Shown here piece by piece: positions 28,482 through 29,009 of a stretch of 64,000 nucleotides of DNA. The first letter of the stretch is position 1. Every line of letters begins with the position of its first letter. Below the pieces are notes generated by a model. It was not told where the DNA came from and ran no database searches. It saw nothing but the letters and a program-made list of their open reading frames with translations. The position numbers and the translations under genes were made by a program. Origin of the DNA: an archaeon (GTDB taxonomy: Archaea; Iainarchaeota; Iainarchaeia; Iainarchaeales; JAAZKV01); NCBI GenBank assembly GCA_041661245.1, contig JBAZUY010000002.1:178153-242152 (forward strand), given 5' to 3'.

Positions 28482-29009
28482 CTAAACTTTTTCAACTTTA
28501 ATGGATAAAGTAACTTTTGTTACTGTTGCTGCTGAATCAATGTTAAACCCAATTACGTCTCCCGCACTAACACTTGTCGTCCATCCGGTTAAAGTTGAAT
28601 CAGTATTTTTTTGAACCGAACTTAGAGTTGGTTTTGCACTTGCAGTAATTGTATTAGCAACTGTTGGAGGAGAATTTGCATATGCACTCTTCCAAACATC
28701 TAAAACAATACTTCCGCTTTGATCAGCTAGTAACGTCCAAGATTTTATTATACAATCATAAGGGATTTGAACATACCCTGCAACACCGGTTGTAATCGCA
28801 CTAGATCCCCCATCTATTGTTACTCCAAAACTTTGGGTAGAGAGTTCATTAACACTAACATCCGTTCCATTTTCTCTAAAAATTATTCCGCTTGCGTTTG
28901 CAACCGAACTCAAACCAACAAGTCCAACACCAACAGCAGCAGCGCCAATCGCAGCTTTTTTTAGAGAATTACGTTTAGTTAAATCCACTGAGTTTTTTAA
29001 ATCAACCAT
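28482..29009 (-). CDS. Tat-like (KR) signal peptide protein, operon head 1
   Basis: Signal TKRNSLKKAAIGAAAVGVGLVGLSSVANA|SG, followed by an all-beta mature domain of about 135 aa. Confidence 0.6.
   Translation of the reverse strand: MVDLKNSVDLTKRNSLKKAAIGAAAVGVGLVGLSSVANASGIIFRENGTDVSVNELSTQSFGVTIDGGSSAITTGVAGYVQIPYDCIIKSWTLLADQSGSIVLDVWKSAYANSPPTVANTITASAKPTLSSVQKNTDSTLTGWTTSVSAGDVIGFNIDSAATVTKVTLSIKVEKV

What the first reader, a model, noticed from the sequence alone, without database searches (positions are those of the whole stretch)
28482..29009. One near-identical Tat-like KR signal peptide on three otherwise unrelated operon-head proteins
The first or second gene of each unit carries the same N-terminal module.

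- 28482-29009: TKRNSLKKAAIGAAAVGVGLVGLSSVANASG
- 36404-37153: SKRDSLKKAAIGAAAIGVGLVGLSSVANASG
- 45794-46450: DFRESLKKKALIAGAIGVGVIGLSGVANASG

This fits the Tat consensus [ST]-R-R-x-F-L-K, followed by a weakly hydrophobic Gly/Ala-rich h-region and an AxA cleavage site. The differences are K-R (or F-R) in place of R-R, and Ser in place of Phe. KR variants are known to be Tat-competent in bacteria.

The mature domains are not alignable with one another. The signal itself therefore appears to be the conserved, possibly system-specific, element.
Basis: partly seen in the sequence, partly recalled or inferred. Interest (0 to 1): 0.75.

Follow-up and report, generated by a model that had tools for sequence, protein, structure and literature searches.

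The report
Single-arginine Tat leader beside its translocase
Three phage-tail-fibre-like surface proteins of an uncultured archaeon share a strongly conserved export leader that looks like a twin-arginine (Tat) signal with only one arginine, and an unusual truncated Tat translocase is encoded in the same gene cluster, so this is probably a private folded-protein export system.

Summary
Exactly three minus-strand genes in the window (28482-29009, 36404-37153, 45794-46450) start with the quoted leader.

"Otherwise unrelated" is overstated:
- P2 and P3 share a homologous middle segment.
- All three mature parts resemble phage tail-fibre or virion modules.

- tatA and tatC lie inside the locus (39424-40294).
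- A leader gene within about 3 kb of tatC recurs in four other lineages, with TatC identity down to 28%.
- One distant relative carries the homologous leader with a true K-R-R-Q-A-I-K-K motif.
- The h-region is the least hydrophobic and most Ala/Gly-rich N-terminal segment in this 35% GC window.
- Leader identity is maintained across synonymous codon changes.

This TatC and its nearest relatives lack the N-terminal segment that, in E. coli, contacts the first Arg and the consensus Phe. Those are the two positions where the leader deviates. They keep the residues that bind the second Arg.

Against: there is no RR, rule-based Tat predictors would reject it, and nothing has been tested experimentally.

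Verdict: a new variant of a known kind, with a Tat assignment confidence of about 0.6. Each leader gene is followed by signal-less tailspike-like β-helix genes, so co-export is possible but unproven.

The parts
28482..29009 (-). P1, a 175-aa leader protein. The leader is residues 1-39 (nt 28893-29009): ...DLTKRNSLKKAAIGAAAVGVGLVGLSSVANA|SGIIFR. The mature part is a jelly-roll module.
   Evidence: PHROG 35197 at 5.7e-34 and phrog_10330 (virion structural protein) at 4.8e-18. AF2 pLDDT above 90 for residues 58-174, with a Foldseek hit to phage 7-7-1 tail fibre 9rkv_N, prob 1.0. 2808 homologues of the mature module.
36404..37153 (-). P2, a 249-aa leader protein. The leader is residues 1-46 (nt 37016-37153): ...IDVSKRDSLKKAAIGAAAIGVGLVGLSSVANA|SGVILR. 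The mature part carries tail-fibre-like motifs.
   Evidence: 308 homologues match only the mature motifs AGTAPLKFTSG..AVEF.TDKLY and the C-terminal ..YTIKQVVKALRNLGLL.
45794..46450 (-). P3, a 218-aa leader protein. The leader is residues 1-54 (nt 46289-46450): ...PDLDFRESLKKKALIAGAIGVGVIGLSGVANA|SGLVFR. Its C-terminus resembles a phage tail protein C-terminus.
   Evidence: phrog_17312 (tail protein) at 1.7e-10. Shares a middle segment with P2. The ortholog in L006 keeps F-R.
40127..40294 (-). tatA, 55 aa from the ATG: MFGITDTVLIIVVLAVILLFGAPKVIEWAKSLGEAKKAF...
   Evidence: Pfam TatA_B_E 1.2e-7 and TIGR01411 6.5e-8. Translation. GGAGG lies upstream of the ATG.
39424..40122 (-). tatC, 232 aa. 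It is a divergent short-N form that starts at the equivalent of E. coli R17. It keeps the Y100 and E103 equivalents, and F94 is replaced by Tyr. It lacks the L9/H12/L13/E15 segment.
   Evidence: Pfam TatC 5.6e-27. phmmer alignment to E. coli TatC 9dzz. An in-frame stop lies 9 codons upstream of the GTG start. MAFFT with 150 representatives. Independent gene calls give the same 232 aa.
41815..45784 (-). Three signal-less β-helix paralogs of 436, 434 and 439 aa, starting MATYYVNKSGSD... They lie directly downstream of P3.
   Evidence: No N-terminal hydrophobic segment. 39-47% identity among seven paralogs of units 2 and 3. A low-confidence AF2 model (pLDDT 58) best matches phage tailspikes and polysaccharide lyases.
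29343..36351 (-). Four signal-less β-helix paralogs of 699, 516, 452 and 441 aa, downstream of P2. Each is followed by a 63-70-aa repeat ORF.
24774..28454 (-). Two signal-less β-helix proteins of 586 and 566 aa, downstream of P1.
   Evidence: Pfam Beta_helix 3.3e-14 and 1.9e-16. The L005 ortholog keeps the P1-to-β-helix order.
40360..41211 (-). LamG-domain protein with a pilin-like N-terminal hydrophobic segment, immediately upstream of tatA. This arrangement is conserved in L005.
   Evidence: Pfam Laminin_G_3 1.2e-20. L005 ORF 36-893.
46440..47288 (-). Pilin-like protein with a class-III-type signal (RAQGITEYL...). Its stop overlaps the P3 start.

Best explanation
The shared N-terminal module is a lineage-specific Tat-type signal peptide. 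Its targeting motif has relaxed from S/T-R-R-x-F-L-K to x-(K/F)-R-(N/D/E)-S-L-K-K, so only the second Arg, the Leu and the Lys remain.

Proposed mechanism:
- The TatA/TatC pair encoded in the same locus recognises the leader.
- That TatC keeps the pocket for the second Arg (Y100 and E103 equivalents). It lacks the N-terminal segment that, in E. coli, contacts the first Arg (E15) and the consensus Phe (L9/H12/L13). This would explain why those two positions are free to vary.
- The cargo consists of phage-tail-fibre-like modules, which normally fold in the cytoplasm. They are therefore exported already folded.
- The leader is probably removed at the conserved ANA|SG site.

Shown:
- the motif, and its conservation under purifying selection;
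- tatAC in the locus;
- the recurring linkage between tatC and a leader gene;
- a homologue with RR;
- the truncated TatC;
- the phage-like nature of the cargo.

Inferred:
- actual Tat dependence;
- cleavage of the leader;
- the structural reason for the relaxed motif.
For: 1. tatC (Pfam 5.6e-27) and tatA (1.2e-7) lie at 39424-40294 between the leader units.

2. The linkage recurs in four other lineages.
- L005, a close relative: LamG, tatA, tatC, then about 2 kb, then the P1 ortholog and a β-helix gene.
- L011 (TatC 30% identity): a leader protein ...NLKLRQDLKN..., then a signal-less MATYY... β-helix gene, then tatA-tatC.
- L015 (34%): the leader protein lies 2.3 kb upstream of tatC on the same strand.
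- L019 (28%): a leader-like tail-fibre protein lies directly upstream of tatA-tatC.

3. The L015 leader is VDVKRRQAIKK...LLKRAWA|GIVFQ. It aligns with the window leaders (BLASTP to P1 residues 2-55, E 1.7e-4 against a database of only 15 window proteins). It carries a true RR plus basic residues in the c-region.

4. In the 13-leader alignment, the Arg column holds Arg in 12 of 13. The L019 leader is aligned uncertainly and shows Phe there. The preceding position is K in 8, F in 2, and R in 2 (L015 and, less certainly aligned, L019), with L in 1.

5. The leaders run 39-54 aa, with long and partly acidic n-regions. Their h-regions are the least hydrophobic N-terminal segments among those scoring KD15 of 2.0 or more in the window: KD15 2.14-2.17 against 2.23-3.69. 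Ala+Gly is 7-9 of 15 residues against 5 or fewer, in a 35% GC genome.

6. NCBIfam TIGR01409 scores the P1 and P2 leaders at 19.1 and 19.5 bits (cut-off 16.7). None of 9 control leaders from the window matches. An in-silico K-to-R change gives 26.5 bits, and adding S-to-F gives 37.2 bits.

7. 15 of the 31 residues identical between P1 and P2 use different codons.

8. In the cryo-EM structure of E. coli TatBC with a signal peptide:
- the first Arg contacts E15;
- the second Arg contacts E103 and Y100;
- the Phe sits in a pocket formed by F94, L9, H12 and L13;
- Leu and Lys face lipid (PMC13323110).

9. The window TatC starts at the R17 equivalent and keeps Y100, E103 and an aromatic residue at position 94. 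Short-N TatCs make up 15 of its 26 best-scoring representatives (itself included), against 4 of the next 124.

10. Natural K-R Tat signals exist in thylakoid Rieske proteins (PMC3471235). A genetic screen found the second Arg to be critical (title cited in PMC6098224).
Against: - There are no consecutive arginines, so TatFind/TatP-type rules that require RR would reject all three.
- Pfam TAT_signal matches only the in-silico RR+F mutant.
- The P3 leader (F-R) hits no Tat profile. I know of no precedent for Phe at the first position.
- The TIGR01409 alignments cover only the h- and c-regions, not the motif. They were not reported when the full-length proteins were scanned.
- The c-region has no basic Sec-avoidance residue, only an Arg at mature position +5 or +6.
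- The linkage between tatC and a leader gene is not universal. It is absent in L008 (74% TatC identity, but a short contig), L013, L021 (a bacterium) and L022.
- A short-N TatC can go with an RR leader (L015). Truncation therefore permits loss of the first Arg but does not force it.
- Only 64 kb of the genome could be examined, so other Tat substrates, or a second tatC, may exist elsewhere.
- There are no experimental data.
Confidence: 0.6

Rival explanations
1. This is an ordinary Sec (SPase I) signal peptide. It looks conserved only because the three genes are paralogs that inherited one N-terminal exon-like module. On this reading the nearby tatAC serves other substrates.
For: The leader has the tripartite n-h-c layout with an AxA site. 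There is no RR, and Pfam TAT_signal does not match. P2 and P3 really are partial paralogs. The linkage to tatC is absent in some relatives. A cultivated DPANN archaeon manages with Sec alone (bioRxiv 10.1101/2023.10.27.564410).
Against: - The h-region is conserved across many synonymous changes. Sec h-regions normally drift.
- n-regions of 18-34 aa with acidic stretches, and an Ala/Gly-rich h-region in a 35% GC genome, differ from every other leader in the window.
- A homologous leader with RR exists.
- Linkage with tatC recurs across lineages at 28-34% TatC identity.
- A conserved Arg at mature +5 or +6 is unfavourable for Sec. This last point rests on established knowledge, not on a test made here.
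Confidence: 0.2
2. The hydrophobic module is not cleaved. It is a permanent N-terminal membrane anchor or assembly helix, as in Rieske proteins. It tethers phage-like fibre modules to the cell. Its conservation would then reflect helix-helix packing in the membrane rather than targeting alone.
For: - The best Pfam hit for the leader is the uncleaved Rieske Tat signal-anchor family UCR_Fe-S_N, at 14.9 and 14.2 bits, which is below threshold.
- The GVG..G pattern is invariant.
- None of the three proteins shows an obvious C-terminal anchor motif by eye, so a cleaved product would have no visible tether.
- By analogy, phage tail fibres keep a constant N-terminal attachment part and swap their C-terminal parts.
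Against: The (V/I)ANA|SG small-x-small site is invariant in the three window proteins and kept, with small changes after the ANA or VNA, in their closest relatives. This suggests processing. AF2 gives only a low-confidence helix for residues 10-25. This rival is compatible with Tat insertion, so it competes on the fate of the leader, not on the pathway.
Confidence: 0.12
3. The locus is a resident or domesticated virus or mobile-element module. On this reading the leader is a viral envelope or spike targeting sequence, and tatAC is an element-borne accessory.
For: - The mature domains and the β-helix genes are phage-like.
- A Bro-N gene (phrog_8036, 1.3e-87) sits next to tatC.
- One short-N tatC lies next to an integrase (L013).
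- Another lies on a unidirectional contig with dUTPase, dCMP deaminase, ThyA and a PD-(D/E)XK nuclease (L019).
Against: - The window is chromosomal: XPD helicase, aminotransferase, dehydrogenase and proteasome subunit flank the locus.
- The XPD, β-helix, P1 ... tatC order is syntenic in L005.
- No capsid, portal or terminase gene was seen.
- IMG/VR scans with the leader and with two short TatCs found nothing.
- PHROGs gave nothing diagnostic for L019 or L015.
- No isolated phage carries a comparable tatC.
Confidence: 0.06

Closest known systems
Canonical twin-arginine (Tat) signal peptides of bacteria and archaea (S/T-R-R-x-F-L-K; TIGR01409, PF10518)
   Same: Both are tripartite and long (39-54 aa). 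Both have a basic motif at the n/h boundary with the L-K positions kept, a weakly hydrophobic Gly/Ala-rich h-region and an AxA site. tatA and tatC are present.
   Different: Only one Arg remains (K-R or F-R), and Ser replaces the consensus Phe. The h-region sequence is nearly invariant among paralogs. Pfam TAT_signal does not match.
Natural K-R Tat signals. Thylakoid Rieske Fe/S protein is cited in PMC3471235. Salmonella TtrB is from my own knowledge.
   Same: Lys replaces the first Arg and the second Arg is kept. The Rieske signal family is also the best, though sub-threshold, Pfam match.
   Different: Those proteins carry cofactors and use a standard TatC. Here the cargo is phage-fibre-like, one paralog has F-R, and the TatC itself lacks the partner segment for the first Arg.
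Substrate-linked minimal TatAC systems, e.g. the Bacillus subtilis phoD-tatAd-tatCd operon (from my own knowledge)
   Same: A two-component TatA/TatC system without TatB is encoded next to its presumed dedicated substrate or substrates.
   Different: PhoD has a normal RR signal and TatCd has a normal N-terminus. Here there are several substrate units, a relaxed motif and a truncated TatC.
Tat hitch-hiker export, e.g. E. coli hydrogenase-2 HybOC and PaoABC (PMC4273604)
   Same: A small signal-bearing protein is encoded next to larger signal-less partners.
   Different: No complex has been shown here. The partners would be tailspike-like β-helix proteins, possibly trimeric, rather than redox enzyme subunits.
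Phage tail fibre and tailspike modules (phage 7-7-1 tail fibre 9rkv; S-CAM1 virion structural protein; Klebsiella phage tailspikes)
   Same: The mature domains of P1-P3 and the β-helix paralogs match these by sequence or fold.
   Different: They are encoded in a cellular archaeal chromosome and fused to an export leader. Phage fibres do not carry one.

Membership tests
Tat signal peptide | Two consecutive arginines within S/T-R-R-x-F-L-K at the n/h boundary | tested here: not met
   T-K-R-N-S-L-K-K, S-K-R-D-S-L-K-K and D-F-R-E-S-L-K-K. The Leu and Lys positions are met. The first Arg and the Phe are not.
Tat signal peptide | An invariant, functionally critical second Arg | tested here: met
   The Arg column holds Arg in 12 of 13 aligned leaders. 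The exception is the L019 leader, which is aligned uncertainly.
Tat signal peptide | Longer overall than Sec signals, with a less hydrophobic h-region | tested here: met
   Length 39-54 aa. KD15 is 2.14-2.17 against 2.23-3.69 for the other N-terminal hydrophobic segments in the window that score 2.0 or more. Ala+Gly is 7-9 of 15. The criterion is taken from PMC6708511.
Tat signal peptide | Match to curated profiles (TIGR01409, PF10518) | tested here: inconclusive
   TIGR01409 scores the P1 and P2 leader peptides at 19.1 and 19.5 bits, above the 16.7 cut-off, but only over profile positions 7-29. P3 has no hit. PF10518 hits only the RR+F in-silico mutant. 0 of 9 control leaders hit.
Tat signal peptide | A Tat translocase (TatA and TatC) encoded by the organism | tested here: met
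   tatA and tatC lie at 39424-40294, inside the locus.
Tat signal peptide | Homology to leaders that carry a bona fide RR | tested here: met
   The L015 221-aa protein has K-R-R-Q-A-I-K-K. It aligns over the whole leader and the start of the mature part.
Tat signal peptide | Tat-dependent, Sec-independent export of folded cargo | not testable with these tools
   This needs genetics or a reporter assay.
TatC (PF00902) | Pfam domain above the gathering score, and a conserved signal-binding Glu (E. coli E103) with Y100 and F94 | tested here: met
   95.3 bits against a cut-off of 25.1. GALYKEEKEF aligns with PALYKHERRL, and F94 is replaced by Tyr.
TatC (PF00902) | An N-terminal segment with H12, L13 and E15 (HLxELRxR) that contacts the first Arg and the Phe | tested here: not met
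   The protein starts at the R17 equivalent. An in-frame stop lies 9 codons upstream, with no start codon before the Asp that would align with E15. The same holds for the 14 other short-N TatCs among its 26 best-scoring representatives. The NCBIfam equivalog cut-offs are also not reached: 78.4 against 132.7.
Sec/SPase I signal peptide | A short, net-positive n-region and a strongly hydrophobic h-region | tested here: not met
   The n-regions run 18-34 aa and contain acidic runs. The h-region is the least hydrophobic of the N-terminal segments in the window that score KD15 of 2.0 or more.
Sec/SPase I signal peptide | Small residues at -1 and -3 (AxA) | tested here: met
   A-N-A|S-G in all three window proteins. 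The related leaders keep ANA or VNA.
Tat hitch-hiker complex | A signal-less partner that binds the signal-bearing subunit before export | not testable with these tools
   Only adjacency is shown. Between 2 and 4 signal-less β-helix genes follow each leader gene, and the same holds in L005 and L011.

The most novel reading that the evidence does not exclude
A private Tat system consists of a TatC that has lost its N-terminal recognition segment plus a co-evolved single-arginine leader. It exports pre-folded, phage-derived adhesin complexes in small (probably DPANN) archaea. On this reading the small leader protein acts as the carrier, and the adjacent signal-less tailspike-like β-helix proteins ride out with it as hitch-hikers to arm the cell surface for host attachment.
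Probability: 0.25. Interest if true: 0.8.

Novelty: new variant of a known kind. Interest (0 to 1): 0.62.

Why it matters
The pairing amounts to a natural experiment on Tat signal recognition. A TatC lineage lacks the elements that hold the first Arg and the consensus Phe, and its leaders have relaxed at exactly those two positions. The 2026 cryo-EM contact map could be tested directly against it.

It would also show that rule-based Tat predictors miss a whole class of substrates in uncultured archaea.

Finally, it suggests how tiny episymbiotic archaea might display phage-derived tail-fibre and tailspike modules, which are built to fold in the cytoplasm: by exporting them already folded.

Tried and rejected
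- **Leader-only profile (A1, 44 columns) against 5.8e9 proteins.** It returned 4 word-sharing candidates and none at E of 10 or below. The query is too short for that database. It is also not a reliable census, because the later full-length P1 search recovered five leader-bearing relatives.
- **Recent gene conversion as the cause of identity.** Rejected, because about half of the identical residues use different codons.
- **Strict co-variation (short TatC implies loss of RR).** Rejected, because L015 combines a short-N TatC with K-R-R. Only the weaker claim survives, that truncation relaxes the first-Arg and Phe positions.
- **Blastocatellia hit L007.** It is an internal transmembrane segment and a chance match.
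- **Viral origin.**
  - IMG/VR scans with A1, P0248 and P0246 found nothing.
  - An alignment of 16 short TatCs was too diverse to scan with.
  - PHROGs gave nothing diagnostic for L019 or L015.
  - tblastn of TatC against GenBank phages returned only 26-28% identity matches, in draft-genome contigs (two of them titled Salmonella enterica) and two small unannotated fecal contigs.
- **Upstream extension of tatC seen in L005 and L008.** That reading frame overlaps the tatA coding sequence and is closed in the window, so it is not real.
- **Rfam and tRNA scans of the window.** Nothing found.
- **Literature.** I found no paper on virus-encoded TatC, or on TatC linked to adhesins in DPANN archaea.
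- **AF2 model of a β-helix paralog.** Confidence was low (pLDDT 58), so the tailspike matches are only indicative.
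Full report
**1. The observation**

The three ORFs exist as described, all on the minus strand:
- P1, 28482-29009, 175 aa;
- P2, 36404-37153, 249 aa;
- P3, 45794-46450, 218 aa.

The motif is specific to these genes. A six-frame regex finds it three times in the 64-kb window and nowhere else. A much looser pattern, R-x-x-[LIVMF]-[KR] followed by at least 13 uncharged residues in the first 90 aa of any ORF of 80 aa or more, also picks out only these three.

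The identity is selected for rather than recent. Over 38 aligned leader residues, P1/P2 share 31, P1/P3 24 and P2/P3 23. However, 15, 14 and 11 of those identical residues use different codons, and nucleotide identity is only 58-77%. The cause is therefore purifying selection on the peptide, not gene conversion or chance.

The "operon head" description is fair. P1 and P2 each follow an intergenic gap with a shared ATTATATA-like box. P3 is the second gene of its unit, overlapping the stop of a pilin-like gene.

The mature parts of P2 and P3 share a roughly 73-aa segment at 36% identity, E 4e-8. All three also keep SG-h-h-h-R just after the predicted cleavage site. Only P1 cannot be aligned with the other two.

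**2. The organism and the neighbourhood**

The window has about 35% GC and no tRNA or Rfam hit.

It is chromosomal. It encodes an XPD-type helicase, an aminotransferase, a 2-hydroxyacid dehydrogenase and a proteasome subunit. It also encodes many proteins with archaeal class-III (pilin-type) N-termini.

The same DNA occurs in NCBI assembly GCA_041664545.1. The closest related genome is titled "uncultured archaeon". A DPANN-type archaeon is likely, but I did not prove it.

On the minus strand, in the order the genes are read, the locus contains:
- a pilin-like gene;
- P3;
- three β-helix genes;
- a 156-aa repeat protein;
- a LamG/pilin-like gene;
- tatA;
- tatC.

A Bro-N gene and two pilin-like genes on the plus strand interrupt the series. 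The minus strand then continues:
- P2;
- four β-helix genes, each followed by a 63-70-aa ORF;
- P1;
- two β-helix genes.

The key fact missed in the first stage is that tatC (39424-40122, Pfam 5.6e-27) and tatA (40127-40294, Pfam 1.2e-7) lie inside the locus.

**3. The cargo**

- **P2.** It has 308 database relatives. All of them match through mature-domain motifs typical of tail-fibre-like proteins. Only one close homologue (P0002) also has the leader.
- **P1.**
  - Its mature module matches phrog_35197 (5.7e-34) and a "virion structural protein" PHROG (4.8e-18), and cyanophage S-CAM1/3 virion proteins.
  - It is found in 2808 proteins behind very different N-terminal parts.
  - AF2 models it as a jelly-roll with pLDDT above 90, and Foldseek pairs it with the phage 7-7-1 tail fibre.
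- **P3.** Its C-terminus matches the C-terminus of a phage tail protein family.
- **The downstream 434-699-aa paralogs.**
  - They start MATYYVNKSGSD... and have no N-terminal hydrophobic segment.
  - They are right-handed β-helix proteins.
  - A low-confidence model best resembles phage tailspikes and polysaccharide lyases.

β-helix "pectin-lyase-like" surface proteins have been proposed as host-wall-attacking factors in a cultivated DPANN archaeon. That archaeon has only Sec.

**4. Is the leader a Tat signal?**

*Sequence features.* The leaders run 39, 46 and 54 aa to the ANA|SG site. Their n-regions are long and partly acidic. Their h-regions are the least hydrophobic N-terminal segments among those scoring KD15 of 2.0 or more in the window (2.14-2.17 against 2.23-3.69), and by far the richest in Ala+Gly (7-9 of 15 against 5 or fewer). 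This is in a genome whose composition disfavours GC-rich codons. These are textbook differences between Tat and Sec signals (PMC6708511).

*Profile matches.*
- NCBIfam TIGR01409 scores the isolated P1 and P2 leaders at 19.1 and 19.5 bits (cut-off 16.7). The alignment covers only the h- and c-regions.
- P3 does not hit.
- Changing K to R raises the score to 26.5 bits, and adding S to F raises it to 37.2 bits. At that point Pfam TAT_signal also matches.
- None of nine other hydrophobic N-termini from the window hits TIGR01409.

*Context.* The close relative L005 keeps LamG, tatA, tatC, then about 2 kb, then the P1 ortholog, a β-helix gene and XPD.

An exhaustive search shows this TatC is very divergent. 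Its best non-self representative is only 30% identical. I looked up the contigs of those nearest representatives:
- **L011 (30%).** A 237-aa protein begins ...NLKLRQDLKNVTVKVIGGIVGILVLTHLAGA|FD. It is followed by a signal-less MATYYINADTGNN... β-helix protein, an Mtd_N-like protein, tatA and tatC.
- **L015 (34%).** A 221-aa protein begins MDKENEVDVKRRQAIKKMLLGGATGLVGLSLLKRAWA|GIVFQSNN. It lies 2.3 kb upstream of tatC on the same strand.
- **L019 (28%).** A leader-like tail-fibre protein lies directly upstream of tatA-tatC.

The L015 leader aligns with the window leaders along its whole length and into the mature N-terminus (BLASTP E 1.7e-4 against a database of only 15 window proteins). It carries a genuine twin arginine plus basic c-region residues. 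The window leaders are therefore diverged members of a true RR leader family that travels with this TatC group.

In the 13-leader alignment, the Arg column holds Arg in 12. The exception is the uncertainly aligned L019 leader. The position before it is K in 8, F in 2, R in 2 (L015 and, less certainly aligned, L019) and L in 1. The consensus-Phe position is S in 10, A in 1 and D in 1.

The linkage is not universal. It is missing in L008 (74% TatC identity, but only 3.7 kb of contig), L013, the bacterial L021 and L022.

**5. Why the motif may be relaxed**

The 2026 cryo-EM structure of E. coli TatBC with a bound signal peptide assigns these contacts (PMC13323110):
- the first Arg contacts E15, through a water molecule, and F94;
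- the second Arg contacts E103 and Y100;
- the consensus Phe sits in a pocket formed by F94, L9, H12 and L13;
- the Leu and Lys face lipid.

The phmmer alignment to E. coli TatC places residue 1 of the window TatC at E. coli R17. It shows GALYKEEKEF opposite PALYKHERRL, so the Y100 and E103 equivalents are kept, and F94 is replaced by Tyr.

Upstream of the GTG start the frame reads stop-KQKQRKSDF, with no start codon. Independent gene callers give the same 232-aa product.

I aligned 150 representatives with MAFFT against the E. coli sequence. E103 is present in 147 of 150, and H12/L13/E15 in about two thirds. The window TatC and 14 other members of its 26 best-scoring representatives have 0-4 residues before the R17 column. 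Only 4 of the remaining 124 do.

So the two leader positions that deviate from the consensus are the two whose TatC partners are absent in this group. The positions that are kept have partners that are kept, or face lipid.

This is an inference. L015 shows that a short-N TatC can still be paired with RR, so truncation seems to relax the motif rather than dictate the change.

A second inference concerns Sec avoidance. All K-R and F-R leaders have an Arg at mature position +5 or +6. The RR leader of L015 has Gln there, but K-R in its c-region. This pattern fits a conserved need for a Sec-avoidance charge near the cleavage site (combined with general knowledge).

**6. The likely mechanism**

The most likely reading, at a confidence of about 0.6:
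1. The modules, which resemble phage fibre parts, fold and perhaps oligomerise in the cytoplasm as phage fibre parts do.
2. The leader takes them to the locus-encoded TatAC.
3. They cross the membrane folded.
4. Signal peptidase I cuts at ANA|SG.

A variant is that the leader stays as an anchor, as in Rieske proteins. The Rieske Tat-signal family is the best Pfam match, though below threshold.

Each leader gene is followed by 2-4 signal-less tailspike-like genes here, and by one in L005 and L011. Co-export by hitch-hiking is therefore an attractive extension (PaoABC precedent, PMC4273604). Nothing here tests it, and I give it a probability of about 0.25.

**7. Rivals**

- **An ordinary Sec signal conserved by paralogy (about 0.2).** It fits the lack of RR and the failed Pfam match. 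It does not explain the selected h-region, the RR homologue, the composition or the repeated tatC linkage.
- **A viral or mobile-element origin (about 0.06 as an explanation of what the locus is now).**
  - Hints for it: the Bro-N gene; an integrase next to one short tatC; and a unidirectional contig (L019) that carries nucleotide-metabolism genes along with tatAC.
  - Against it: the window locus is chromosomal and syntenic; no capsid or terminase gene was seen; and the IMG/VR, PHROG and GenBank-phage searches gave nothing.

**8. Comparison with what is known, and novelty**

- Natural K-R Tat signals are known in thylakoid Rieske proteins. From my own knowledge, Salmonella TtrB is another.
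- A genetic screen singled out the second Arg as critical (title cited).
- Archaea lack TatB.
- From my own knowledge, substrate-linked TatAC operons exist, such as B. subtilis phoD-tatAdCd.

What I did not find described is the combination seen here:
- an N-terminally truncated TatC group;
- single-Arg leaders with an almost invariant h-region;
- phage-fibre-like cargo;
- signal-less tailspike-like neighbours.

I class it as a new variant of a known kind, with interest of about 0.6.

**9. Limits**

- Only 64 kb of this genome, plus short metagenomic contigs, could be inspected.
- No dedicated signal-peptide predictor and no multimer modelling was available.
- All functional statements are inferences from sequence, context and published structures.

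Noticed in passing
window 29146-29340, 30689-30880, 32263-32475, 34058-34255 and 41339-41809 (all - strand): These small ORFs form one family (63-70 aa, plus one 156-aa member) built from repeats of P-K-(L/V)-x-A-(F/I)-x-F and ending ...SPPTTIKTASFNSETTLL. Each starts within a few bases of the stop of a β-helix gene. There is no Pfam or PHROG match. They could be chaperone-like or adaptor-like partners of the β-helix proteins.
   Followed up: partly
L019 (Logan SRR13221994 contig, 28.5 kb) 1-20702; L013 1743-2444: Short-N tatA-tatC pairs also occur in two mobile-looking contexts. One is a unidirectional contig (L019) that also carries:
- dUTPase;
- dCMP deaminase;
- thymidylate synthase;
- a PD-(D/E)XK nuclease;
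- an 1886-aa protein.

The other (L013) sits next to a phage-type integrase. This may mean a virus- or element-borne Tat translocase. PHROG and IMG/VR checks were uninformative.
   Followed up: partly
window 38461-39423 (+); L005 1834-2359: A Bro-N-domain gene (phrog_8036, 1.3e-87) sits between tatC and the pilin-like genes. At the same position the close relative L005 has two small ORFs that look like a toxin-antitoxin pair (not tested). The site appears to be a hot spot for mobile insertions.
   Followed up: no
window 28482-28830 (P1 mature module): The roughly 115-aa jelly-roll module of P1 occurs in 2808 database proteins. The 120 best listed are 49-73% identical, apart from the closest orthologs. 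Their N-terminal parts are completely different: collagen-like repeats, Sec signals, phage-fibre stalks. This is an unusually well conserved, widely shuffled tip module of unknown ligand.
   Followed up: partly
window 36404-36570 (P2 C-terminus): The last 55 aa or so of P2 (...FDGYTIKQVVKALRNLGLLT) are 75-88% identical to the C-termini of many otherwise unrelated metagenomic proteins. This is another highly conserved, mobile terminal module.
   Followed up: no
window 8874-13212 (-) and 20729-22513 (+), 37714-38385 (+), 46440-47288 (-): There are many genes with archaeal class-III (prepilin-type) N-termini (QKGQAA..., QGT(T/I)EYL...). They include a tight cluster next to a 787-aa gene at 13220-15583. 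The window is rich in pilus and surface-filament genes.
   Followed up: no
window 46440-46450; L006 692-702; L010 3237-3240; L015 3729-3736: In four lineages the leader gene overlaps the stop of the upstream gene. In the window, L006 and L010 the upstream product ends in ...(S/T)DGS. In L015 it ends ...VIIHG. The overlap suggests translational coupling and perhaps a complex between the two products.
   Followed up: no
window 29040-29075 and 37185-37215 (upstream of P1 and P2); L005 about 3690-3720: A shared ATTATATA-type box with a following AAAGTTTTT-like stretch lies upstream of P1, P2 and the L005 P1 ortholog. It is probably a common archaeal promoter for the leader genes.
   Followed up: no
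P1 residues 8-49, P2 residues 11-56: The leaders give weak hits to the C-terminal part of archaeal initiation factor aIF6 (NF003133). With the isolated leader peptides the scores are 19-21 bits, E 1.7e-4 to 8e-4, against a cut-off of 324. This is probably compositional, but it was seen in both proteins.
   Followed up: no
L021 (GCA_031274525.1 contig JAISQA010000022.1) 9772-10696: A bacterial chromosome, carrying LptF/G, ribosomal protein S21 and topoisomerase I, also encodes a short-N TatC next to tatA. The N-terminal truncation of TatC is therefore not confined to archaea.
   Followed up: no
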